The translations under genes and the position numbers were made by a program. A stretch of 10,179 bases of DNA from Janibacter sp. GXQ6167 (GTDB lineage Bacteria; Actinomycetota; Actinomycetes; Actinomycetales; Dermatophilaceae). Positions 1 to 9,919 of this stretch are shown one piece after another. Within the stretch, counting starts at the first letter, position 1; each line of letters opens with the position of its first letter. Under the pieces are notes generated by a model, which was not told where the DNA came from, searched no databases, and was given only the letters and a program-made list of their open reading frames with translations. The stretch is from NCBI RefSeq assembly GCF_041365945.1, contig NZ_JBGFSK010000017.1, positions 2,555 to 12,733 of the forward strand, given 5' to 3'.

Positions 1-537
1 GCATCTTCGGACATTACATTCACCTTCTTCTGCTTTCTCTCACTGCCGCCCTTCCCCATGTGCCCGGCTTTCCCGGCCTCGGAGTACTACGACGGCTCCG
101 CCCCACCCGCACCCTTCGGCTGGCAACGCACCTATCCCCACCAATGCGGGGAGCGGAATGCGGATGGTTCCCACGTTCACTGTTGTTCGGTTGACGGGCG
201 AGGCGTCCGGCTTTACCCCTGCGGCATCGTCGTGGCTACGCCGTAGACCTTCACCACGACCTGCCGGACCCGACACATACCACCGTTCCGACAGTTCCCC
301 ACCCGCCACGACCATCAACGATGGCCCCGACAAGCGGTTACGCACCGCAAACCAGCCCCGATCCACCGGGTTAGAGCTGGGCGACGATCAAGAGGCTTTA
401 CGACACCGGTTCCTCTCGTACACCTTCCCGCCTTGCTCACCAGACACGGCCCATCCGGTAGTACTGGACCGTCCTGACTATGTCACGGCTGCTCCCACCC
501 ACCCCAGGCGTTCCCCCAGGACAGGCTGCCGTCAGCT

Positions 538-1123
538 TCACTCGGCCGCTACGACGGCCAATCGATCAAGGTCTCTCACCTCCATCCGATACAACAGCGC
601 CTCGTGGCGCACGACGTGCTCGTCGACACCGATCGTGGTGACCCCGTCGAACCGACCAGGATCGTCGATCAGGCGCCGCTTGCCCTCCGCGAGCACCGCA
701 GTGTTCGCGGCGCTCCAGGAAACCCCAAGACCGGCGGCGACACGGGTCACGGTGAGGTGGTCGACGACGATGCCCCGCAGCGCCCACTCCACGCCGAGGC
801 GGGAGATCTTCGCTCGTGGCGCGGCGGCGCGAGTCATGTCCCGCCGCCACGTCCGCCGGCAGTGCGCGCACCGGTAGCGGCGGACCCGGACCAGAAGCGT
901 TGTCGGCCTATGCCCGAACGGCTCATGCGCGAGTCGACGCGTCACCGTGTCCCGCGACACACCCCTCCGCCCCGCACTTCCGACACCAGGGGTCCACCTC
1001 GACCGACCGACACTCGATCATCGCCCGGTCCCGCTCGAGCAGCTGGCCGACCGCTTCGAGCCCGAGTTCATCGAGGCGGCAGAACGTGGTCAGGTCAGGG
1101 GTCGCGAAAGTAGGGTGGAGCAC
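538..1123 (-). pseudogene. ISL3-family transposase, N-terminal part only (zf-ISL3 + HTH region up to the VDEHVVRH block), with a frameshift near 950 and a premature stop at 538
   Basis: ORFs 923..1123(-) and 538..960(-) together read MLHPTFATPDLTTFCRLDELGLE...CRKCGAEGCVAGHGD / VTRRLAHEPFGHRPTTLLVRVRRYRCAHCRRTWRRD...IGVDEHVVRHEALLYRMEVRDLD. These match the ISL3 transposase motifs C-x2-C-G...GHG, RRxxC and IGVDEHxWRH. The two ORFs overlap in different frames, which implies a 1-nt frameshift. The DDE catalytic domain is absent. Confidence 0.75.
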
Positions 1124-1235
1124 GTCGAGGTCTTTCGGGATGGCGAGCGTGAAGAACTTCCATCATCCGGGAGACCTCGACCCCTACCCGGCTGCCAACG
1201 CGCTCACCCGACTACACCCTCATTCGTGAAGAGCC
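538..1235 (-). mobile_element. ISL3-family insertion sequence remnant: terminal inverted repeat GGCTCTTCAC (minus strand, ending at 1235) plus the 5' part of a transposase gene. The element may continue in degenerate form towards position 1.
   Basis: Minus-strand end reads GGGCTCTTCACGAATGAGGG, which matches the ISL3-family terminal IR consensus GGCTCTTCG. The transposase start lies about 110 nt inside the IR, as is usual for this family. The 8 bp just outside the IR (cgataaga, 1236-1243) are a plausible AT-rich target-site duplication. Confidence 0.7.
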
Positions 1236-1653
1236 CGATAAGACGGGCGACGTTGCGGCTGACGAGTTCGTCGCGCATCGCGCGGGTCAGGGCGGCGGAC
1301 AGTACGGTGCGGAACTTCTGTGCGGTGCGGATTGAGTGGCCCTCGTCGAGCAGCGCGCAGGCGGCGTTCTGCACGTCGCGCACGGTGAGCTGGGTCAGGC
1401 GCTTGCTGCCGATGCGAGGAAGGATGTGCAGTCGCACGACGCCCTCGTATCCCCGTGCGGTGTTGCGTCGGTTGCGGCGCGGCACGACTGTCTCTAGCCA
1501 CTGCTGCAGATAGCCGGCGACCGTGACCTGTGAGTTCGGGGTCAGGATGCCGCGGCCCTCGTGCCGCGGCCCGCCCGGGCGCTTGCGTCGCCTTGCGACC
1601 CGCCGGATCGGCTCGAAAAGACGTTCTGTGGTATATCTATTACGAGAGGCCAT
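1236..1653 (-). pseudogene. Tyrosine recombinase / phage-type integrase, N-terminal SAM-like core-binding domain only; the catalytic domain has been removed by the ISL3 insertion at 1235/1236
   Basis: From the Met at 1653 the frame reads MASRNRYTTERLFEP...SQVTVAGYLQQWLETVVPRRNRRNTARGYEGVVRLHILPRIGSKRLTQLTVRDVQNAACALLDEGHSIRTAQKFRTVLSAALTRAMRDELVSRNVARLI. This is a typical integrase N-terminal core-binding domain. The ORF then reads through the IS inverted repeat and stops at 1204. The region upstream of 1653 is antisense to a well-supported plus-strand gene, so 1653 is preferred over the ORF-track start at 1857. Confidence 0.7.
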
Positions 1654-1661
1654 ATACAGGA
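1635..1661 (+). promoter_or_regulatory. AT-rich motif copy A: ATCTATT-acgagag-GCCATATACAGGA. Putative promoter or operator immediately upstream of the plus-strand cargo block; it overlaps the integrase start codon on the opposite strand.
   Basis: A 7-mer and a 13-mer are shared exactly with 9264..9283 (minus strand) in the same orientation relative to the downstream gene. It is an AT-rich island in GC-rich DNA. Confidence 0.45.
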
Positions 1662-1714
1662 TGCACCTGGGCCTTGTCTGGGGGCTACCCAGATCGAGTC
1701 TGGAGGTGTACGGC

Positions 1715-2329
1715 GTGGCCGCGCGAGTCGTCGATGTGCGTTGTCCGGGATGCGGGAGCGCCTGGAGCACCAACCAGCAGTTCTGCCAGTACTGCGGTCG
1801 CCAGGTGCTGATCAGCTCGATGTCCGACCTGATCAGCCTGGAAGCGCGCGACCTCAAGAAGCACGTCCGTACCTACGAGGACGCGCTGGACGAGGGCGCC
1901 GATGATCCGAGCGTGCATGCGGCGCTCGGCATGTGCCTGCTCAAGCTGGGGCTGCGCGACAAGGCGCTGTCGCACTTCGAGGATGCGCTGCTCGATGACA
2001 TCGAGAACTCGGAACCGTACTTCTACGCCGCCGTCGCGTCGCTGGGTGGCAAGAAGCCGTTCCTGGTTCCGCTGGCTGGCATCCGCCGCGCGGAGGAGTA
2101 CCTCACGGCGGCGCTGCGGCTCGAGGAGCGCGGAATCTACGCCTACCTCTACGGGTACATCCGCTTCGACTACTACGAGCGCAAGTCGCTGAACGTCGAG
2201 CCGTCGTACCAGCACTACCTGCAGCAGGCAGTGCTTCGCGGTGTGACCGATCTGGACATCCAGACGCTGTTCGAGCTGCTGGAGATCGTCCCTTCGTCCG
2301 CTTCCATTCCGACCAGCGTTTCCGCCTGA
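1715..2329 (+). CDS. Zinc-ribbon (CPGCG-x9-FCQYCG) plus alpha-helical TPR-like domain protein. Alternative starts are ATG 1661 (possibly leaderless) or GTG 1706.
   Basis: ORF 1523..2329. GGAGG at 1702-1706 lies 8 nt before GTG 1715. N-terminal CxxC...CxxC zinc ribbon followed by helical repeats (LGMCLLKLGLRDKALSHFEDALL...YAYLYGYIRFDYYE). High GC3 from 1715 onwards; codons between 1661 and 1715 are rare (ctt, cta, aga, agt). Confidence 0.7.
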   Translation: MAARVVDVRCPGCGSAWSTNQQFCQYCGRQVLISSMSDLISLEARDLKKHVRTYEDALDEGADDPSVHAALGMCLLKLGLRDKALSHFEDALLDDIENSEPYFYAAVASLGGKKPFLVPLAGIRRAEEYLTAALRLEERGIYAYLYGYIRFDYYERKSLNVEPSYQHYLQQAVLRGVTDLDIQTLFELLEIVPSSASIPTSVSA

Positions 2330-2365
2330 CCCCTGTTCTAACCACCCGAGAGAGGTTCCTTCGCA

Positions 2366-3061
2366 ATGGCCATCAACTATGAGCGCAACAAGAAGTACTT
2401 CAAGCAGTCCAGCCCCAAGGCCGGCATCATCCTGATCGTGATCGGCCTGGTGCTGACGCTCGCCCTCCCCGAGGCGGGCAAGCTCGTCGGCATCCTGGGC
2501 ATCCTGGGTGGCGCGGCGCTGATCTACTTCCAGTTCGCGGGCAAGCCGAGCGACGCGGACATCGACTCGGACGCTGCTGCCGCCATCGCGGACGTGAAGA
2601 AGCGCGCGCTGGGCAAGCTCGGTCTGGACGAGGACGAGGTCAAGCTCATCGACCCGGTGATCGTTCACGGCTACTACTACAAGAACATCGCCTCGGGCGT
2701 GCAGGTCAAGCTCGGCAAGGACCGCGTCTTCCGTTCCTCGAACTACGAGGGCGTCGTGCTGTTCTTCAGCGAGCACCAGCTGCACGCGTTCAAGTTCCAG
2801 TTCTCTCTCGTCTCGCCGCAGGAGAGCCGCGAGCAGACCGACGAGTACTTCTACAAGGACGTCGTGTCGGTGGCGACGCAGTCGGAGACGTTCAAGATCA
2901 ACGACATCAAGGGCAACAGCCAGCAGGTCAACTTCGAGGAGTTCAAGCTCACCACCACGGGTGGCACCTCGATCACTTCGTCGATCCGCGACGAGGGCTC
3001 GGTCAGCCGCGTCATCTCCGGCGCGCGCAGCCTGATTCGCGAGAAGAAGATCGCGTCCTGA
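2366..3061 (+). CDS. Membrane protein: two N-terminal TM helices followed by a soluble ~170-aa domain of about 170 aa (possibly a bacterial PH-like / membrane-flanked domain); function unknown
   Basis: ATG 2366 with GAGAGAGG upstream. Hydrophobic stretches IILIVIGLVLTLAL and LVGILGILGGAALIYF. High GC3. Co-directional, 36 nt after the previous gene. Confidence 0.75.
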   Translation: MAINYERNKKYFKQSSPKAGIILIVIGLVLTLALPEAGKLVGILGILGGAALIYFQFAGKPSDADIDSDAAAAIADVKKRALGKLGLDEDEVKLIDPVIVHGYYYKNIASGVQVKLGKDRVFRSSNYEGVVLFFSEHQLHAFKFQFSLVSPQESREQTDEYFYKDVVSVATQSETFKINDIKGNSQQVNFEEFKLTTTGGTSITSSIRDEGSVSRVISGARSLIREKKIAS

Positions 3062-3076
3062 CCCCGAGTTCTCTGC

Positions 3077-3115
3077 GTGCCGGGGCCGGTCGGCAGTCGC
3101 CACCGGCTCCGGCAC
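3077..3115 (+). terminator. Strong GC-rich hairpin (14 bp stem including one G-U pair, 11-nt loop) 15 nt after the stop of the membrane-protein gene. Putative intrinsic terminator or intra-operon attenuator (I-shaped; only a weak U tract, ACCAAUUCC).
   Basis: GTGCCGG-G-GCCGGT [cggcagtcgcc] ACCGGC-T-CCGGCAC is perfectly self-complementary. It lies between 3061 and the ATPase start at 3157. Confidence 0.45.
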
Positions 3116-3156
3116 ACCAATTCCGCTGCCCGAGCGTGACGTGAGGAGTGTGCCGT

Positions 3157-5841
3157 ATGCCCGCAGGCGACGCGCCCCTGACGTTCACGCCTCTCGCGCA
3201 GGGTGAAGTAGCCGCTGCTACGGTGGTCGAGGTCGTCCGCATCCCGCACGTCTCCGTGCTGGGCGATGATCCGGCTGCCGAGCTGGTGCAGCAGTCCAAG
3301 CGGGACTTCGTCAGCCTGCTGTTCGAGGCGTACCAGTCGTACCGCGGACAGTACGAGGACGGCCCCGACCGAGCTAGCGACTGCGCTCTGGAACTGCTTT
3401 GGCAAGCACACCCCATTCAGGGCCAGCCGCACGCCGCCGACCTCACGCTATTCATCATCGTTCGCGCGATCGGCGCGAACCGGGACGACGCAGCGGCGGT
3501 TGTCAACGAGCTGCACGCTGTCGTGATCAGCGCGCTCACGCTCGGCGGCTTCGACTACGCAGATCGTCCTGCCTCCGCGATCGGCGCCCAGGCGGCGGAA
3601 CGGTCGGTTGCGCTCGTGAAGGAGGAGTGGATTGAGAACCTCGGCAACCAGATCCTGCCGAGCGCCTTCGCCTTCCACCGTATCCCCACGGGCAGCCGTG
3701 ATCTCTCACGTATCGCCAGCGCCCTAACCGAGGTGCCCGGTGCGTCCCTCTCGGTTCAGCTGATCCCGGCGACACTGGAGCCTGACGAGCGGACTGCTAT
3801 CGAGCAGCTGACGCTGGCGCTCACGACCCTCGCCAACGGTGTGACGGATCAGTCGATCGGTACCGTCAGCTTCACCGCGGCGAAGCGCCTCGCGGAGATG
3901 TACTCGTATCTGGAGGGGCACAAGGACTCGCCCCTGTTTCTGTTTAACGTCGTCGTCTCCGGGCCGAAGCTCGCCGTGCCGGTGATCGCCAACCGGGTGC
4001 TCGGTCACCTCTCCGCCGACGCCGAGGTAGGCGCGCTGGCGGCACGCTTCGTCGACGCCACAGCCCTGGTGCCACGAGGCGATGCGTCCTTCGTCGCTGC
4101 ACCGTGGCAGCTGAACGAGACGCTGCTCGACCAGACTCGTGATCCGTCGCTCTGGGCGGCGGGCCGCAATCCCGGTGAGGCATTCTACCGGCTGCCGTTC
4201 CTGCTGACGGCATTCGAGGCATCGGAGTTGTTCCGTCTGCCGATCGGCAGTGACACGGTCGGCGCCGGGCTGACGGTGAACACCACGACCCGGCACTCGC
4301 GCAACTACTCGGCCGGCGTGATCGGGAGCTCGAGCATCGAAGCCGGGCGACTCGCCGGGGCGGCCGAGGTCTCGATCGGGTTCGGGCATACCGACCTGAC
4401 CAAGCACGCTTTCGTCACGGGGACGCCCGGTTCGGGTAAGACGACGTTCACGGTCGGGCTGCTCGACCGGCTCTGGCACGAGCACGGCATCCCGTATCTG
4501 GTGATCGAGCCGGCGAAGAACGAGTACCGGGCGCTGATCGAGACGACGCCGGATCTGCAGGTGTTCACCCCGGGCAAGGATCATCTGTCTCCGCTTGTGC
4601 TGAACCCGTTCCTGCCGCCAGCGGGCGTGCGGGTGCAGAGCTACAAGTCGACCCTCAAGACGGCGTTCGCAGCCGCGGTCACGATGACGAGCCCCCTGGA
4701 CAAGATCTTCGAGGACGCCCTCTCAGCCACGTACTCGCGGTTTGGCTGGTTCGATGCCGACACAGCCGCCGATGGCCGTGAGGTGTTCTCTATCCGCGAC
4801 TTCCTGGCCGTTTTCCAGGAGACCTTCGTCCGCATCGGCTACACCGGAGACGCGGCCAACATCGGACGAGCAGGCCAGGTGCGCCTGCAGAGTCTGGTTG
4901 GCCTGTTCGACACCTACCCTTCGATCCCTGTCGAGGATCTGCTGTCGAAACCCACGGTAATCGAGCTGGCAGGGATCGAGAACAGCGACGACAAGGCCCT
5001 CTACATCGCGCTCATCCTGCTGCAGGTCCTCGCCTACGTGAACGCCAACGTCGCCGGCGACGGGAAACTCAAGCACGTCCTCCTGCTCGAAGAAGCCCAC
5101 GTCTTGCTCGACGCCGACGACGCCAGCGGACCGGGCGAAGCGGACCCCGCCGCGATTGCGAAGAAGCTGCTCAAACGCATGTTGGCCGAGATCCGCTCCT
5201 ACGGCGTCGGCATCATCGTGGCCGATCAGTCGCCACGCAAGGTCGGCTCGGACGTGGTGGCGCTCACGAACATCAAGCTCGGGTTCCGGCTGGTCGAGGC
5301 CGCAGACAAGGAGATCCTGGCCGAGAGCACCAACATGAGCGACGCGCAGCGCGAGCGGCTGGCGCGGCTCCGGCCGGGCGAGGCACTCCTGTTCTACGAC
5401 CGCCTCGAAGACCCCGAGGAGATCGCCACAGCCGACTGGCGCGCCCAGCGCGGCATCCCGACGTTCGTGTCCGATGAGGAGATCGCCCGAAAGGTCACTT
5501 ACTGGCAGCGGCACCCGGAACTGCTCATGCCATACCCGGAGAGCGCCTACATCGGGGGCTGGGACGCCTCGGTTGCCGGTGCGGGCAAGGAGATCGCCCG
5601 GCGCCTCTTCGCCGCGCACGTCCCGGCCGGCGATGTCGGCGTCAAGAGATTCGGCAGCATCTACCGGCAGCTCGATGCGTTCATCGCCGCCGAACTTCCC
5701 GCGTCGATCCCGAACACGCCGGCCCTGCGGCGAGCGGTCAAGGTCAACTTCCTGCGGCTGGTCAAGTACGAGTCGCAGATCCCACTGTCGGACGCCACGA
5801 TCCACAAGACCCTCGAAGCCGAGAGGAGCCGCACAGCATGA
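3157..5841 (+). CDS. FtsK/HerA-superfamily (DUF87 / HerA-like) P-loop ATPase of about 894 aa, with a large (~420 aa) N-terminal region of unknown function
   Basis: Walker A HAFVTGTPGSGKTTF (about aa 425). DEAH-like Walker B VLLLEEAHVLL. The blocks LVIEPAKNEY and GIIVADQSP also fit HerA/VirB4-type ATPases. GAGGAG at 3143-3148 lies 8 nt upstream of ATG 3157 (the ORF track began at GTG 3148). The stop overlaps the next start (ATGA). Confidence 0.85.
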   Translation: MPAGDAPLTFTPLAQGEVAAATVVEVVRIPHVSVLGDDPAAELVQQSKRDFVSLLFEAYQSYRGQYEDGPDRASDCALELLWQAHPIQGQPHAADLTLFIIVRAIGANRDDAAAVVNELHAVVISALTLGGFDYADRPASAIGAQAAERSVALVKEEWIENLGNQILPSAFAFHRIPTGSRDLSRIASALTEVPGASLSVQLIPATLEPDERTAIEQLTLALTTLANGVTDQSIGTVSFTAAKRLAEMYSYLEGHKDSPLFLFNVVVSGPKLAVPVIANRVLGHLSADAEVGALAARFVDATALVPRGDASFVAAPWQLNETLLDQTRDPSLWAAGRNPGEAFYRLPFLLTAFEASELFRLPIGSDTVGAGLTVNTTTRHSRNYSAGVIGSSSIEAGRLAGAAEVSIGFGHTDLTKHAFVTGTPGSGKTTFTVGLLDRLWHEHGIPYLVIEPAKNEYRALIETTPDLQVFTPGKDHLSPLVLNPFLPPAGVRVQSYKSTLKTAFAAAVTMTSPLDKIFEDALSATYSRFGWFDADTAADGREVFSIRDFLAVFQETFVRIGYTGDAANIGRAGQVRLQSLVGLFDTYPSIPVEDLLSKPTVIELAGIENSDDKALYIALILLQVLAYVNANVAGDGKLKHVLLLEEAHVLLDADDASGPGEADPAAIAKKLLKRMLAEIRSYGVGIIVADQSPRKVGSDVVALTNIKLGFRLVEAADKEILAESTNMSDAQRERLARLRPGEALLFYDRLEDPEEIATADWRAQRGIPTFVSDEEIARKVTYWQRHPELLMPYPESAYIGGWDASVAGAGKEIARRLFAAHVPAGDVGVKRFGSIYRQLDAFIAAELPASIPNTPALRRAVKVNFLRLVKYESQIPLSDATIHKTLEAERSRTA

Positions 5842-7019
5842 GCGACTACGGCACCGACATTGCAGACGCCCCCGTCGACACCGGCGCGGACGTCAGCGTG
5901 CCCGATACGACCGACTACGCCGACGAGCCGGTCGACCTGGCCGAGACCCCGCCCGAGTCGGAGGCGCCCGAGGCCGAGGAGGCGCCGCCCGCCGAAGACC
6001 TCTCGGAGCCCGCAGCAGATGAACTGAGCGGCACGGCGGAGACGCCGGCGGATGCGGAGGCACCCGTCGACCTGGGCGCGGCCCCGGAAACGGCCGACGC
6101 CGCCCCGGAACAGCCCCAGGACTGGCAGGAGGGCGAGGTCGTCGATCTCGGCGACGACGCTGCCCCCGACGCCCCGCAGGAGGACGAGACCGCCGAGGCG
6201 GACGATCCTGCCGGGCGCGACCTGGGTGATCCCGACCTGGCCGACAGCCCGGAGGCCGAGGCTCCCACGGATAGCGCCGGTGAGGATCTGACGACACCGA
6301 CGGACGACGAACCGGGCGCCGGTGATGCGCCGACTGACGCCGACGAGCAGGTACCTGAGGCGGCGGAGATTGAGCCCGAGGCCGCAAACGACGTGACGGA
6401 TGCCGAACCCGAGCCCAGGGTCGATGAGTTGACAGAGGCGGCCCGGGATGAGGCCCGCCCCGCCGACGAGCTGCGCGCCGAGTACTACGCCGACGTGGCT
6501 GATGTGCTGGCCGATGACACACCATCCGACGCCGAGCCGGTCGAGACGCAGGACACTCCCGGAGCAGACGCTGCCGAGGCGCCGGAGTCGAGCGATCACG
6601 CGGACGCCGCCAATGACCGCAGCAACTCCCCAGAGAACGAGGCACTGACCTCGGCGCTAGCCGAGAAAGGCCTGTCGCTGGAGCCGGTCGATCGCTTCGA
6701 CTACAGCGACAACCCGGTTCTCGGCTACCGCGAGTCCGCCCCGCCCGAAGACGTCGCGTACGCCGTCAACGCCTGGAACGACGAGATCGCGCCCGGCATC
6801 GCGGCCGGCGCGACCCGTGAGGACTTCGCCGCCTACGACCAGGAGCACGGCCTCGAAGGGCAGCGGCAGCTGGCCGGCGTCTACGACTACATGCTCGGCG
6901 GCGACGCGATCAAGAGCGGCGGAGAGCGCGAGGACGGATCGCTCGACGTCACCGGCGGCAGGCACCGCCTGGAACAGGCGCGTCTGAACGGCGTCCAGTA
7001 CCTGCCCGTGAGGAAGTAG
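5838..7019 (+). CDS. Highly acidic protein: about 270 aa of D/E/P/A-rich low-complexity (disordered) sequence followed by a ~120-aa globular C-terminal domain ending in a ParB/sulfiredoxin-like GGRHRLEQARLNG motif
   Basis: ATG 5838 overlaps the TGA of the ATPase gene (translational coupling). GAGAGGAG lies 9 nt upstream. The C-terminus reads DVTGGRHRLEQARLNGVQYLPV, compared with the ParB/Srx consensus h-x-G-[EG]-[RH]-R-x-x-A-x-x-x-G-x-x-x-IP. High GC3 throughout. Confidence 0.75.
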   Translation: MSDYGTDIADAPVDTGADVSVPDTTDYADEPVDLAETPPESEAPEAEEAPPAEDLSEPAADELSGTAETPADAEAPVDLGAAPETADAAPEQPQDWQEGEVVDLGDDAAPDAPQEDETAEADDPAGRDLGDPDLADSPEAEAPTDSAGEDLTTPTDDEPGAGDAPTDADEQVPEAAEIEPEAANDVTDAEPEPRVDELTEAARDEARPADELRAEYYADVADVLADDTPSDAEPVETQDTPGADAAEAPESSDHADAANDRSNSPENEALTSALAEKGLSLEPVDRFDYSDNPVLGYRESAPPEDVAYAVNAWNDEIAPGIAAGATREDFAAYDQEHGLEGQRQLAGVYDYMLGGDAIKSGGEREDGSLDVTGGRHRLEQARLNGVQYLPVRK

Positions 7020-7056
7020 CCGACCCGGCATCCGATCCGACGAAAGCGAACACCGT

Positions 7057-8256
7057 ATGAAGATCTACGACGTCATCAAGAACGAGACCGGCCTTCTCAA
7101 CGACGGCCTGGGCTCGAAGGCCGTGCTGGCGTGGAAGTTCACCGGTGAGGACTTCAACGACAACACGCAGCTGATCGTCTCCGAATCGGAGGAGGCGATC
7201 TTCATCCGCGACGGCATCGCCGTGGCGACCTTCGGCGGCGGCCGCTACACGCTCAACAGCAACAACCACCCCTTCATCGGCAGGCTGAGGAACCTGCTCT
7301 CCGGCGGGGTGAGCGCGTTCAGCTCGCGGGTGTACTTCGTCAACATCGATCACAAGTTGGAACTGCTGTGGGGCACCGACAGCCCGATCCAGCTCCGCGA
7401 CCCGGTCTGGAGCCTGCAGACCAGCGTGCAGGCGCGCGGCTCGTACTCGATCCAGGTGACGGACTCCAAGAAGTTCCTGATCAAACTGCTCGGCACCAAC
7501 ATCCAGGTTTTCGACGAGCAGCAGCTCGCCGGCTACTTCCGCAGCGCCTTCTCGCAGCACATCCGCGGACAGATCGCCCGCTACATCCGCGACTCCGGCC
7601 AGGAGATCCTGGAGATCACCTCGGACATCGAGCTGCTGGCCGAGCAGCTGCACCCGAGGCTCGCACCGCTGCTGGATGAGTACGGCGTGAAGCTCGTCAA
7701 CTTCTACATCGCCGCGATCGACATCCCCACCGACGACCCGAACCGCCAAGTGCTGGAGAACTCGATCGCACAGAAGCAGGCCAAGCTGCAGAGCGCGCAG
7801 GGCGATAAGGCCGTCATGGGGCTGCTCGGGGAAGACTGGGCCAGGCAGCAGTCGGCCACCATCCTCACCGAGCTCGCCAAGAACCCCGGCGCGGGTGGCG
7901 TGGCTTCCGCGGGTGCCGCAGCAGGCGTTGGCCTGGCTGCGGGCAGCGTCTTCGGGGAGATGGCGACGCAGATGTTCACGCGCCCCGTCCAGCCCGCAGG
8001 CGACCCGATGGCTGGCAATGTCGGGCGCAACCGCACATCGCGCTTCTCGCCCGCAGAGCCTGCCGCGCCGGCCGCCGCCGAGACGTGTCCGGGCTGCGGC
8101 GCGAGCGTGGCGGCGGGAGCGAAGTTCTGCCCGGAGTGCGGCAACCGTCTCGCACCTCAGCAGGTGCCCTGCTCGGGTTGCGGAACCGCAATCGCGAGCA
8201 CGGCCAAGTTCTGCCCCGAATGCGGAACGCCGAACAACCAGGGAGCATCCTCATGA
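7057..8256 (+). CDS. SPFH/band-7 (stomatin-prohibitin-like) domain protein with two C-terminal zinc ribbons (COG4260-like membrane-protease-subunit family)
   Basis: N-terminus MKIYDVIKNETGLLNDGLGSKAVLAWKF...SESEEAIFIRDGIAV. The C-terminus carries CPGCGASVAAGAKFCPECG and CSGCGTAIASTAKFCPECG. The stop overlaps the next start. Confidence 0.8.
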   Translation: MKIYDVIKNETGLLNDGLGSKAVLAWKFTGEDFNDNTQLIVSESEEAIFIRDGIAVATFGGGRYTLNSNNHPFIGRLRNLLSGGVSAFSSRVYFVNIDHKLELLWGTDSPIQLRDPVWSLQTSVQARGSYSIQVTDSKKFLIKLLGTNIQVFDEQQLAGYFRSAFSQHIRGQIARYIRDSGQEILEITSDIELLAEQLHPRLAPLLDEYGVKLVNFYIAAIDIPTDDPNRQVLENSIAQKQAKLQSAQGDKAVMGLLGEDWARQQSATILTELAKNPGAGGVASAGAAAGVGLAAGSVFGEMATQMFTRPVQPAGDPMAGNVGRNRTSRFSPAEPAAPAAAETCPGCGASVAAGAKFCPECGNRLAPQQVPCSGCGTAIASTAKFCPECGTPNNQGASS

Positions 8257-8930
8257 CCCGCACGATCCTGCGCGCCATCCTGTGGCTCGTCCCCATCGCC
8301 GTCTACGTCGCCATCTTCCTCATCCTCGAGGCCCCGCAGGGCGCGACGTTCTGGACGTCCGCACTGCTGCTGGCGTTCGCCTACGTCATGCTCGCCGTCA
8401 GTTTCGTCGCCGTGCCGCGCAGTCGGATAGCCGCGATCCTGGCCATGCCCCTGATCCTGGTGGCGAGCATCTACTTCACTGCCGAGCTCATCGCGGCCAG
8501 CATCTTCATCTACGTGCAGGACATTCCATACCCGTGGGTGATCATCACGCAGCTGATCCTGGCCGCGATCTTCCTCGTCGTGTTCCTCACCACCTTGTTG
8601 TCCAACGAGGCCATCGCCGCCCAGATCGAGACCCAGCACGCCGACGTCCTGGTGATCAAGAGCGCCGTCACCCGCATCACGGCCCTGGGACGTGTCGCCC
8701 ACGATCCGCGCCTGGCGAAGTCGCTGGACGGGCTGGCCGAGGAGTTCCGCTACAGCCCGACGATGCGCTCGAACCAGGTGCGCGAAGTCGACGCGCAGAT
8801 CGCCGTGCAGCTCGAGCGACTGGAGAGCCTCGTCCACATCCAAGCTTCGCAAGAGGATACCGTCGGCCAGATCGCGGCGATATCCGGGGCGCTCGCTTCA
8901 CGCAACGAGGCGATCAAGCTCCGCCAGTAG
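8253..8930 (+). CDS. Integral membrane protein (about 4 TM helices) with a C-terminal amphipathic / coiled-coil cytoplasmic domain; translationally coupled partner of the SPFH protein
   Basis: ATG 8253 overlaps the TGA of the SPFH gene (tcATGA). Hydrophobic segments LWLVPIAVYVAIFLIL, LLLAFAYVMLAVSFVAV, AILAMPLILVASIYF and ITQLILAAIFLVVFLTTLL, followed by a helical tail (QIAVQLERLESLVHIQASQEDTVGQIAAISGALASRNEAIKLRQ). Confidence 0.75.
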   Translation: MTRTILRAILWLVPIAVYVAIFLILEAPQGATFWTSALLLAFAYVMLAVSFVAVPRSRIAAILAMPLILVASIYFTAELIAASIFIYVQDIPYPWVIITQLILAAIFLVVFLTTLLSNEAIAAQIETQHADVLVIKSAVTRITALGRVAHDPRLAKSLDGLAEEFRYSPTMRSNQVREVDAQIAVQLERLESLVHIQASQEDTVGQIAAISGALASRNEAIKLRQ

Positions 8931-9226
8931 GAGGAGGTGCATAGGGCAGACCCGCGCGCAGATCCGGCCACGGCTGCGGCACCAGCTGGTCGAGCGTGAC
9001 ACCGAGCACCTGCGCGATGGCCATGATCTTGCGCAGACTCGGGTTGGCCGGAGTCTCCGGCATCGACTCGCCCTTCTCGAACTTCTGGAAGGTGTAGCGC
9101 GTGAGCCCAGCGGCGTAGGCAACCTGCTCCTGGGTGAGTCCACGGTCGATCCGGTGCCGCTGAATGCTGGCACCAAGTTCGCGCGCGTACTGGGGCCAAG
9201 GGCCATCGGGTCGTCGTTTTTGCCAT
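8914..9226 (-). pseudogene. XRE-family (Cro/CI-type) helix-turn-helix transcriptional regulator. The reading frame is interrupted by a 1-nt frameshift inside a 5-nt homopolymer (plus-strand T5 at 9217-9221). The 3' end overlaps the end of the membrane-protein gene convergently by 17 nt.
   Basis: The HTH frame reads ...RELGASIQRHRIDRGLTQEQVAYAAGLTRYTFQKFEKGESMPETPANPSLRKIMAIAQVLGVTLDQLV, but has no ATG/GTG/TTG before Met-56. ATG 9226 is in the -1 frame; removing one A from the A5 run gives an intact 104-aa protein, MAKRRPDGPWPQYARELGASIQRH.... This frame is not in the ORF track because it lacks a start. Confidence 0.6.
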
Positions 9227-9263
9227 CACCCCAGGCTGAGCAGGTGGCCTCCCGGAACGAACC

Positions 9264-9283
9264 TCCTGTATATGGCAATAGAT
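9264..9283 (-). promoter_or_regulatory. AT-rich motif copy B: ATCTATTGCCATATACAGGA (minus strand), 37 nt upstream of the XRE start. Putative promoter or operator.
   Basis: Exact 13-mer GCCATATACAGGA and 7-mer ATCTATT shared with 1635..1661, in the same orientation relative to the downstream gene. Confidence 0.45.
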
Positions 9284-9376
9284 CCGCTCGATCAGTAACC
9301 CCGCGTGGCCGTCGGCGACGATAGGCGCATGAATGAAGAAGGCCCGGGAGCCGCTCCAGCCGAGAACTCGTGGTTC

Positions 9377-9919
9377 TCAAGGCCGGGGCGAACTCCCGAG
9401 CAGGGCGTGCAGCTGATGGCTGGCTGGTGAGACGGCGCGAATGCGGGTCTCGTGGAGGGCGGGGTCGTGCGTGCGCAGGTACATCGCCCAGAACGCCGCG
9501 TCGGCATACGTTGTGTGCAGATCTGACTGCGCCCGCCAGCCGCTCGAAGCGGTGCGCCGGTAGCCGACTTCGTAAGGGCCGCCATGCAGGAGTTCCTGCA
9601 CGAGTGATGCCGGGACGTCACCGACCGGGTAGGTGCTGCCGATATCGCCCACGAGGAGCACGTCGCCGTGCAACGCCGGCCGCTGCCTTGAAGTGGTGTC
9701 CCAGAACCAGCGCAGCGACGAGGCGCGCAGGTTCATCGGGAGCCCGTTTCGGCGGTCGTCGGCGTCGAGCCACATCGTGACACCTCGGCTCTCGATGTCG
9801 ATCGGGATCACCAGATCAGCGAGCTGCTGAATGTCTGCGAACCCTGCGACCTCCCGCGTTTCGAGTTGTTGCTCGATCTGCGCCGGGATGAGAACAGCCG
9901 TGACGGTCTCACCATTCAC
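9377..9919 (-). CDS. DUF3846-family protein (a small family common in actinobacterial phages and integrative elements) with a ~80-aa C-terminal extension
   Basis: GTG start at 9919 with GGGTGAG upstream. The N-terminal 100 aa (TAVLIPAQIEQQLETREVAGFADIQQLADLVIPIDIE...GVTMWLDADDRRNGLPMNLRASSLRWFWD...GDVLLVGDIGSTYPVGDVPASLVQELL) fit my recollection of the DUF3846 pattern (VxPADG...VxE...LxxLxxxVGGxIE...xWxNEEGxLxxLPxNxxAT.L). Confidence 0.65.
   Translation of the reverse strand: MNGETVTAVLIPAQIEQQLETREVAGFADIQQLADLVIPIDIESRGVTMWLDADDRRNGLPMNLRASSLRWFWDTTSRQRPALHGDVLLVGDIGSTYPVGDVPASLVQELLHGGPYEVGYRRTASSGWRAQSDLHTTYADAAFWAMYLRTHDPALHETRIRAVSPASHQLHALLGSSPRP

What the first reader, a model, noticed from the sequence alone, without database searches (positions are those of the whole stretch)
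1635..1661. Shared 20-nt AT-rich motif upstream of the cargo block and of the XRE regulator (second copy at 9264-9283)
ATCTATT / GCCATATACAGGA occurs in the same orientation 0 nt before the plus-strand ATG 1661 (54 nt before the SD-supported start at 1715) and 37 nt before the XRE gene start on the minus strand. In copy A the two halves are split by a 7-nt insert (acgagag) that encodes Ser-Arg of the integrase N-terminus on the opposite strand. The integrase N-terminus uses very rare codons (aat aga tat acc aca) exactly across the motif, so the DNA element is constraining the protein sequence. This looks like a common promoter or operator that would put the cargo operon and its likely repressor under one circuit. 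It may also permit leaderless translation from ATG 1661.
Basis: seen in the sequence. Interest (0 to 1): 0.65.

Follow-up and report, generated by a model that had tools for sequence, protein, structure and literature searches.

The report
Shared operator of an XRE regulator
A short AT-rich DNA box sits in front of a small XRE-type regulator gene in many actinobacteria, and a weaker copy sits in front of the neighbouring six-gene operon here; it is most likely the regulator's binding site, an ordinary kind of control circuit resembling the controller proteins of restriction-modification systems.

Summary
The 13-mer GCCATATACAGGA is real. It is exact at 1649-1661(+) and 9264-9276(-), and no shuffle gave two copies. 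The extra ATCTATT half is not significant and is not conserved in relatives.

In 18 loci from Microbacterium, Herbiconiux, Agreia and Bifidobacterium, with unrelated gene contexts, every close XRE homologue carries T-GCCATATA-NNN-GAGG-C. The box starts 49-51 nt before the start codon and nothing is conserved 5' of it. Each gene also has an ANNNT hexamer ending 6-8 nt before ATG/GTG, and 17 of 18 lack a Shine-Dalgarno sequence. This suggests a leaderless mRNA with the box centred near -43.

A weaker copy lies upstream of the HerA-like/SPFH/zinc-ribbon operon only where that operon is paired with the XRE gene.

My best reading is an autoregulatory operator plus a second operator on the convergent operon, as in C.Esp1396I or lambda cI/PRM. 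Neither binding nor the direction of control has been tested.

- The "integrase N-terminus" is a fusion artefact. Two related loci have a stop at codon 4 of that frame.
- ATG 1661 is not a conserved start codon.

Verdict: new member of a known kind, modest interest.

The parts
9261..9277 (-). Conserved box upstream of the XRE gene: T-GCCATATACAGGAGG-T (family consensus T-GCCATATA-NNN-GAGG-C). It spans -51 to -35 from the XRE start codon.
   Evidence: In 18 loci anchored on the motif: T18/18, G18, C17, C18, A18, T15, A18, T18, A16, NNN, G17, A18, G18, G18, C14. Nothing is conserved 5' of it. The box starts at -49 to -51 in all 18.
1648..1664 (+). Weaker copy of the box upstream of the six-gene operon: G-GCCATATACAGGATG-C. 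It differs from the XRE-site consensus at two invariant positions (G instead of T at -1, T instead of G at +13).
   Evidence: Exact 13-mer repeat. Second-best matrix hit in window, L001, L009, L018 and L019. AGGCCA plus the following bases is the best-conserved non-coding block in the 6-locus alignment.
9247..9262 (-). Possible second, degenerate unit 14 nt downstream of the main box (GTTCGTTCCGGGAGGC), overlapping the -35 region.
   Evidence: The same register shows clearer second units elsewhere: L104 GCCATATGAACGAGAC, L197 GCCATATAATGGGGAC, L107/L022 GCTGTATAGGAGAGGT. This is inference only.
9233..9238 (-). -10-like hexamer CAGCCT, 6 nt before the XRE ATG. It predicts a leaderless XRE mRNA.
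   Evidence: An ANNNT hexamer ends at -6 to -8 in 18 of 18 loci. There is no SD tetramer at -17 to -6 in 17 of 18. ANNNT at -6 to -13 is the mycobacterial -10 signature (PMC6448022).
8914..9226 (-). XRE-family HTH gene (103 aa after removing one A from the run at 9217-9221). Its 3' end overlaps the last cargo gene by 17 nt.
   Evidence: Translations. More than 100 homologues with Pfam HTH_3/HTH_31. In-frame orthologues in L001, L009 and L019.
1715..8930 (+). Six-gene operon: zinc-ribbon/TPR protein, membrane protein, 897-aa HerA-like ATPase, acidic repeat protein, SPFH (Band_7_1) protein with zinc ribbons, membrane protein. SD GGAGG at 1703-1707, start GTG at 1715.
   Evidence: Pfam, PADLOC and NCBIfam searches. 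Same gene order in L001-L004, L009, L018 and L019.
1635..1641 (+). It is not part of the conserved element.
1204..1653 (-). Integrase fragment ORF. Only about 1204-1566 derives from an integrase. Codons 1-29 (1567-1653) are cargo-upstream DNA.
   Evidence: Pfam Phage_int_SAM_3 matches from residue 45. tblastn homology begins at residues 36-44. Stop at codon 4 in L001 and L009.

Best explanation
The motif is a protein-binding operator that belongs to the XRE gene.

Shown by sequence comparison:
- The XRE gene carries a fixed promoter module: the box T-GCCATATA-NNN-GAGG-C, then about 22 nt, then an ANNNT -10 hexamer, then 6-7 nt, then the start codon.
- There is no Shine-Dalgarno sequence and no conserved -35 hexamer.
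- The convergent six-gene operon carries a lower-scoring copy of the box 50 nt upstream of its SD-led start.

Inferred:
- The XRE mRNA is leaderless, and the box is centred near -43.
- The XRE protein binds this box and regulates its own promoter. The position matches lambda cI at OR2/PRM and the distal site of controller (C) proteins, so positive autoregulation is plausible.
- A degenerate unit 14 nt downstream, over the -35 region, could give shut-off at high protein concentration.
- The same protein binds the cargo copy, so operon and regulator form one circuit.
- On the cargo operon I favour repression. The XRE gene has been knocked out three different ways (frameshift in the window, IS insertions in L001, deletion in L002) while all cargo reading frames stay intact.
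For: - 13-mer repeat: no shuffle gave two copies.
- Box at -49 to -51 in 18 of 18 XRE loci. These come from at least four genera and from unrelated contexts: sulfate permease, NRPS, PIN, Schlafen, SMODS, glycosidase.
- Conservation starts exactly at the T before GCC.
- ANNNT ends at -6 to -8 in 18 of 18 loci, and 17 of 18 have no SD.
- The recognition-helix region (AGLTRYTF/YQKFEKGES) is nearly invariant in homologues that have the box. The most divergent homologue, P0105, has a changed helix and a diverged box.
- Exact GCCATATA occurs only at the XRE-upstream and cargo-upstream sites in these 10-20 kb loci.
- The cargo copy is the second-best matrix hit in 5 of 5 loci with both XRE and cargo. 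It is absent in the Modestobacter loci, which have the operon without the XRE.
- The cargo copy is the most conserved non-coding block across six loci.
- No RNA structure or covariation over the box.
- Precedent: C.Esp1396I binds distal and proximal sites at its own promoter and a single site at the convergent M gene promoter (PMC2691842). Many C genes are leaderless (PMC2632904).
Against: - No binding or transcript data exist.
- The box has little dyad symmetry; only the terminal GCC/GGC are symmetric. HTH dimers usually bind palindromes.
- No promoter can be recognised for the cargo operon, and its geometry differs from the XRE promoter: there is no ANNNT 38-43 nt after the box. The mode of control there is therefore open.
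- Loci with an XRE but no cargo operon show no second copy within the flanks I could read.
- The loci with both XRE and cargo are homologous, so they represent only about 2-3 independent lineages.
- One homologue (Aeromicrobium, L109) has the same recognition helix but no clear box.
- The window's frameshift could be a homopolymer sequencing error.
Confidence: 0.55

Rival explanations
1. The box is itself a core promoter element, an extended -10-like TGnCATATA with transcription starting in the conserved GAGG. It is shared by both transcription units and read directly by RNA polymerase or an alternative sigma factor, not by the XRE protein.
For: It is an AT-rich patch in 66% GC DNA. TG is invariant one base before CATATA. 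In the window lineage a stable leader hairpin that pairs with the cargo SD begins at 1662, right where such a start would fall.
Against: The hexamer never ends in T (A, C or G in 18 of 18), whereas ANNNT defines actinobacterial -10 elements (PMC6448022). The sigma-70 scan finds nothing at either site. A start in GAGG would give the XRE a 36-nt leader with no SD, while a proper ANNNT sits at the leaderless position in 18 of 18. The leader hairpin lacks covariation support.
Confidence: 0.15
2. The box is bound by a different protein: a host global regulator, a nucleoid protein that recognises AT-rich DNA, or another regulator of the element such as the 44%-identical XRE paralogue seen near the operon in L001 and L019.
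For: The box is asymmetric. A second XRE paralogue lies 1.4-2 kb from the operon in L001 and L019. The Aeromicrobium homologue has the same helix but no clear box.
Against: The box travels with this XRE gene through at least four genera and many unrelated contexts, at a fixed distance. The invariant GCC and GAGG flanks argue for sequence-specific recognition, not AT-tract recognition.
Confidence: 0.15
3. The two copies are terminal inverted repeats or recombination boundaries of a mobile cargo+XRE module.
For: They are inverted and bracket the conserved module. Homology to L018 and L002 ends within about 20 nt of them.
Against: The same geometry follows automatically from two convergent units with promoters at the outer ends. 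There is no transposase inside. There is no target-site duplication: the flanks are GTGGTAT/CCGCTCG or ACGAGAG/AATAGAT. XRE genes without the cargo operon have one copy only.
Confidence: 0.03
4. The motif acts as RNA, as a leader structure or a decoy Shine-Dalgarno sequence (AGGAGG).
For: GAGG/GGAGG is SD-like. L009 has a 9-codon upstream ORF with an SD, ending in TGA over the XRE ATG.
Against: No Rfam match. RNAalifold finds only the 3-bp GCC/GGC pairing, with no compensatory changes. The upstream ORF's start codon is absent in the window, L001 and L019. The box lies upstream of the predicted leaderless start.
Confidence: 0.03

Closest known systems
Controller (C) proteins and C-boxes of type II restriction-modification systems (C.PvuII, C.AhdI, and especially C.Esp1396I)
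   Same: A small XRE-type HTH protein. Its own gene is often leaderless, with a conserved box at a fixed distance upstream. There is a strong distal site plus a weaker proximal site over the -35 region. In Esp1396I there is also a single extra site at the promoter of a convergently transcribed gene. Operators have imperfect symmetry apart from the complementary outer trinucleotides (PMC2632904, PMC2691842, PMC3351150).
   Different: There are no restriction or methylase genes here. The cargo is a six-gene HerA-like/SPFH operon, and the regulator is not co-transcribed with it. The strong box ends 34 nt before the start codon, not 17-18 nt. The box sequence is unlike published C-box classes. No sequence match to solved C proteins at E <= 0.01.
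Lambda cI at OR2/PRM
   Same: A leaderless repressor mRNA, an operator centred about -42 that activates a promoter with a poor -35, and a further site that shuts it off (my own knowledge of the lambda system).
   Different: This is not a phage immunity region. There is no Cro-like divergent gene, and phage collections give no match.
Regulators next to defence or mobile-element operons (CapH/CapP XRE-type, BrxR/CapW WYL-type)
   Same: A small regulator gene attached to a variable cargo operon. XRE homologues here also sit beside SMODS/S_4TM, Schlafen-AlbA and PIN genes.
   Different: Those regulators are usually divergent from the operon and bind a palindrome in the shared intergenic region (my own knowledge). 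Here the genes converge, their 3' ends overlap by 17 nt, and the second site lies 7.6 kb away at the far end. The cargo is not a recognised defence system: PADLOC gives only generic HerA/mad8 hits.

Membership tests
R-M controller (C) protein circuit | Small (about 70-100 aa) XRE-type HTH protein | tested here: met
   103 aa. Homologues carry Pfam HTH_3/HTH_31/HTH_19. NCBIfam gives only generic XRE hits below cut-off.
R-M controller (C) protein circuit | Linked to restriction endonuclease and/or methyltransferase genes | tested here: not met
   No R-M domains in the window or in any related locus.
R-M controller (C) protein circuit | Leaderless C-gene mRNA with the box at a fixed short distance from the start codon (typically 17-18 nt) | tested here: inconclusive
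   The sequence signature of a leaderless mRNA is present in 18 of 18 loci and the distance is fixed. However, the strong box ends 34 nt upstream. Only the weak second unit ends about 20 nt upstream. No transcript data.
R-M controller (C) protein circuit | About 35-bp double box made of paired inverted repeats | tested here: inconclusive
   A 14-nt periodic second unit is visible in several loci, but only the outer GCC/GGC are dyad-symmetric.
R-M controller (C) protein circuit | Detectable sequence homology to characterised C proteins | tested here: not met
   The PDB sequence search returns three non-C HTH proteins at E of 5e-4 to 2e-3 and no C.AhdI, C.BclI, C.Esp1396I or C.Csp231I.
Sigma-70/SigA core promoter | -10 hexamer with A at position 2 and T at position 6 (TANNNT/ANNNT) | tested here: not met
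   No register of GCCATATA-NNN fits. The consensus scan finds none at either copy. A proper ANNNT lies 38-43 nt downstream of the XRE copy.
Transposon terminal inverted repeats | Inverted repeats at both ends, a transposase inside, and a target-site duplication | tested here: not met
   Inverted repeats are present. There is no transposase among the seven genes and no duplication of the flanks. XRE loci without the cargo operon have a single copy.
Autoregulated XRE repressor/activator with operator | The protein binds the box and changes transcription | not testable with these tools
   Needs EMSA or footprinting and reporter assays.

The most novel reading that the evidence does not exclude
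The XRE gene with its -43 box and leaderless promoter is a portable, C-protein-like controller cassette. It is spread through Microbacteriaceae and Bifidobacterium and is repeatedly attached to toxic or conflict-related cargo. Here it times or limits expression of an undescribed membrane-associated HerA-like ATPase/SPFH/zinc-ribbon system through a low-affinity second operator. The controller is recurrently lost (frameshift, IS insertion, deletion) to unlock the cargo.
Probability: 0.2. Interest if true: 0.5.

Novelty: new member of a known kind. Interest (0 to 1): 0.3.

Why it matters
If the XRE protein binds both boxes, this gives a defined operator and a simple predicted circuit for a widespread but unstudied actinobacterial regulator family. 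The circuit would be a leaderless, self-controlled regulator plus one target operon. It would also give a handle for switching on a conserved six-gene HerA-like/SPFH operon whose function is unknown. The logic of the circuit is not new: it matches controller proteins of restriction-modification systems and lambda cI. The practical value is better annotation (true start codons, the pseudo-integrase ORF, the frameshifted regulator) and a testable entry point to the cargo.

Tried and rejected
- Megablast of 1500-9400 against plasmids and phages: no match.
- Exact-sequence look-up of a window protein: not on record.
- Rfam and tRNA scans: nothing relevant; one sub-threshold miRNA hit at 1122-1184.
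- Sigma-70 and terminator consensus scans at both copies: nothing.
- Viral-contig scan for TGCCATATANNNGAGGC: 84 hits in AT-richer contigs, none followed by an XRE homologue. I treat these as chance. The viral scan with the XRE protein gave only distant HTH proteins.
- Extended paralogy between the two upstream regions beyond the 13-mer: left flank reached in 153 of 2000 shuffles, right flank in 735 of 2000. Rejected.
- A palindromic half-site model GCCAT-N6-GAGGC: only 3 of 5 positions are symmetric in most loci. I keep it only as "complementary outer trinucleotides".
- Searching for a cargo promoter with the same geometry as the XRE promoter, or any ANNNT conserved across the six cargo-upstream sequences: none found.
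- An SD-sequestering leader hairpin as a conserved feature: z = -2.2 in the window, but no covariation in 4 lineages.
- A conserved upstream ORF before the XRE gene: it has an ATG only in L009.
- Sigma-28/WhiG, SigF/SigB, ECF, WhiB7 AT-hook and UP-element readings were considered from memory and dropped, because spacing or the invariant GC flanks do not fit.

Full report
**1. The observation.** The window reads ...ggtatATCTATTacgagagGCCATATACAGGAtgcacc... at 1635-1663. At 9264-9283 it reads TCCTGTATATGGCAATAGAT, the reverse complement of ATCTATTGCCATATACAGGA. The 13-mer is exact at 1649-1661(+) and 9264-9276(-). Even allowing 2 mismatches, 0 of 200 dinucleotide shuffles gave two copies. The contiguous 20-mer exists only at 9264-9283. 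On the DNA the two copies are inverted, so each points toward the gene downstream of it.

**2. Gene context.**
- Plus strand, 1715-8930, six genes: a zinc-ribbon/TPR protein, a 231-aa membrane protein, an 897-aa HerA-like ATPase, a 393-aa acidic protein, an SPFH (Band_7_1) protein with zinc ribbons, and a 224-aa membrane protein.
- Minus strand: an XRE-type HTH gene running from 9226 down to 8914. It is readable only after removing one A from the run at 9217-9221. Orthologues read ATGGC(A/G)AAGCGACG in frame. Its 3' end overlaps the last cargo gene by 17 nt.
- Further right is a DUF3846 gene at 9377-9919 (-).
- On the left are an integrase-like ORF at 1204-1653 (-) and an ISL3 zinc-ribbon fragment.

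**3. Related loci.** The operon recurs in the following loci:

| Locus | Source | Similarity to window |
|---|---|---|
| L001 | Microbacterium sp. HA-8 | 88% nt |
| L009-L017, L019 | metagenomic contigs | |
| L018 | more divergent locus | |
| L002 | MAG | 80% nt |
| L003, L004 | two Modestobacter genomes | 67% nt, coding regions only |

The XRE protein has more than 100 homologues. I retrieved 18 non-redundant loci with close homologues from Microbacterium, Herbiconiux, Agreia, Bifidobacterium crudilactis and metagenomes. Many have unrelated neighbours: sulfate permease, NRPS, PIN, Schlafen/AlbA, SMODS/S_4TM, glycosidase.

**4. What is conserved at the XRE gene.**
- Aligned on the start codon, all 18 loci carry G(C/T)CA(T/C/G)AT starting at -49 to -51.
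- Column counts are T18, G18, C17, C18, A18, T15, A18, T18, A16, three variable positions, G17, A18, G18, G18, C14. No column 5' of this exceeds 12 of 18.
- The element is therefore T-GCCATATA-NNN-GAGG-C, at 9261-9277 in the window.
- In all 18 loci an ANNNT hexamer ends 6-8 nt before the ATG/GTG (16 of 18 at -7). In 17 of 18 there is no SD tetramer at -17 to -6.
- ANNNT at -6 to -13 is the -10 signature of mycobacterial promoters, which lack a conserved -35. About a quarter of their transcripts are leaderless (PMC6448022).
- I infer a leaderless XRE mRNA (window: CAGCCT at 9238-9233, then GGGGTG, then ATG 9226). This puts the box centre near -43, just upstream of a non-conserved -35 region.
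- A second, degenerate unit follows 14 nt downstream in several loci, for example L104 GCCATATATAGGAG|GCCATATGAACGAG.
- RNAalifold finds no structure across the box, and Rfam has no match.

**5. What is conserved at the operon.**
- A position-weight matrix built from the XRE sites scores them at 24-33 bits.
- In the window, L001, L009, L018 and L019 the next-best hit in the whole 9-20 kb locus (12.6-15.1 bits) is the site upstream of the first cargo gene.
- L002, L003 and L004, which have no intact XRE, have no hit at 12 bits or more.
- Exact GCCATATA occurs nowhere else in these loci.
- In the six-locus alignment of the cargo upstream region, AGGCCA and the following bases form the only invariant non-coding block.
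- The window's cargo copy (G-GCCATATACAGGATG-C) departs from the XRE consensus at two invariant positions, so it looks like a weaker site.
- L018 has GGCCACATACACAAGGC, and L002 has GGCCATGTAAACAATGC.

**6. Claims that fail.**
- *(a) Integrase constraint.* Window homology to L001, L009 and L019 runs from about 1566-1574 rightward. None of those loci encodes the integrase, and L001 and L009 read ATG GCC TCT TAG in that frame. Integrase homologues align only from residues 36-44, which is about 60 residues into the full-length proteins. The "N-terminus" is therefore cargo-upstream DNA fused to a truncated integrase fragment. This explains the odd codons.
- *(b) ATG 1661.* It is AGG in L018 and out of frame in L002. 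GTG 1715, with GGAGG at 1703-1707, is the start.
- *(c) ATCTATT.* A flank-to-flank match this good appears in 153 of 2000 shuffles.

**7. Mechanism.** The best-supported reading is an operator that belongs to the XRE gene, with a second, weaker copy recruited to the convergent operon.
- The layout is a small XRE protein, a leaderless gene, a strong distal box near -43, and a weaker proximal unit over the -35 region.
- It parallels controller proteins of restriction-modification systems (PMC2632904) and lambda cI at PRM.
- It especially parallels Esp1396I, where the C protein also binds a single site at the promoter of the convergent M gene to repress it (PMC2691842).
- The recognition-helix region is almost invariant among homologues with the box. 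It diverges together with the box in the most distant homologue.
- The direction of control is inferred only. The -43 position suggests self-activation. For the operon I lean to repression, because the XRE gene is inactivated three ways (window frameshift; two IS elements in L001; deletion in L002) while all cargo reading frames stay intact.

**8. Weak points.** There is no binding or transcript evidence. The box is nearly asymmetric. No cargo promoter is recognisable. The loci with both XRE and cargo represent only 2-3 independent lineages. One homologue (L109) lacks a clear box.

**9. Rivals.**
- A direct promoter element (TGnCATATA) is disfavoured, because the hexamer never ends in T and the XRE would get an SD-less 36-nt leader.
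- Another binding protein cannot be excluded.
- Terminal inverted repeats are unlikely: no transposase, no target duplication, and a single copy at XRE genes that lack the cargo operon.
- An RNA role has no support.

**10. Verdict.** This is a real, conserved cis-element and a plausible shared operator. It is a new member of a well-known kind of circuit and of modest interest.

Noticed in passing
window 9217-9221: The XRE gene is frameshifted by one extra A in an A5 run, where orthologues have AAAG or GAAG. It is either a pseudogene or a homopolymer sequencing error.
   Followed up: partly
L001 16923-19593; L002 16890-17030: The XRE gene is split by a 2.67-kb insertion holding two IS elements in Microbacterium sp. 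HA-8. One of them encodes a DUF772/DDE_Tnp_1 transposase. In L002 the XRE gene is reduced to a short remnant. The cargo genes are intact in both.
   Followed up: partly
window 8914-8930: The XRE gene and the last cargo gene converge and overlap by 17 nt. The same overlap is called in L009, L010 and L018, so transcriptional interference or antisense effects are possible.
   Followed up: no
window 1662-1710: The predicted cargo leader folds so that UGCACCU (1662-1668) pairs with AGGUGUA (1704-1710), covering the Shine-Dalgarno sequence. An inner hairpin lies at 1678-1694. MFE is -25.4 kcal/mol, z = -2.2. Four lineages give no covariation support.
   Followed up: partly
window 1-1566: The left part is a patchwork: a 5'- and 3'-truncated integrase fragment (about 1204-1566), an ISL3 transposase zinc-ribbon fragment (538-960, minus strand), and a C-rich stretch (1-540) with strong negative GC skew and no Pfam or Rfam match.
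   Followed up: partly
window 1585-1599: The palindrome GCGTCGCC-TT-GCGAC is conserved in L001, L009 and L019 about 50 nt upstream of the cargo box. It could be a second operator or the stem of a terminator for an upstream gene.
   Followed up: no
L002 8693-8905 and 17030-17245: The cargo module in this MAG is flanked by diverged direct repeats of about 210 nt (77-85% identical) from the 3' end of a flanking gene. This is as expected if the module arrived on an integrating element that duplicates its target.
   Followed up: partly
window 5838-7019; L002 13633-14538: The acidic fourth cargo protein varies in length between loci (393-424 aa). In L002 it contains tandem repeats of 87 and about 295 nt.
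   Followed up: no
L009 3551-3580: A 9-codon upstream ORF (ATG AGA GGC CGC CTG CTG AGC CTG GGA TGA) lies 6 nt after AGGAGG, and its stop overlaps the XRE ATG. The start codon is missing in the window, L001 and L019.
   Followed up: yes
L001 about 9010-9065; L009 about 11465-11515: The direct repeat ATGCCTGT(C/T)GTG occurs twice, about 35 nt apart, roughly 250 nt upstream of the cargo box. The window has the integrase fragment at that position.
   Followed up: no
L025, L026, L107, L108, L197, L199: XRE homologues often sit next to conflict or mobile-element genes: SMODS/S_4TM/EC042_2821, Schlafen-AlbA with HATPase_c_4, PIN, DUF3846 and DUF6907.
   Followed up: partly
window 9356-9386 (minus strand): A GC-rich hairpin (-27 kcal/mol, z = -1.8) overlaps the DUF3846 stop codon. 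It is conserved in L001, L009 and L019 and has no U tract. It may separate the DUF3846 transcript from the XRE promoter.
   Followed up: partly
L109 about 320-372: The Aeromicrobium XRE homologue (77% identical, same recognition helix) lacks the box and the ANNNT signature. It has TTGGGTACACAGCAG about 6 nt closer to the start codon.
   Followed up: no
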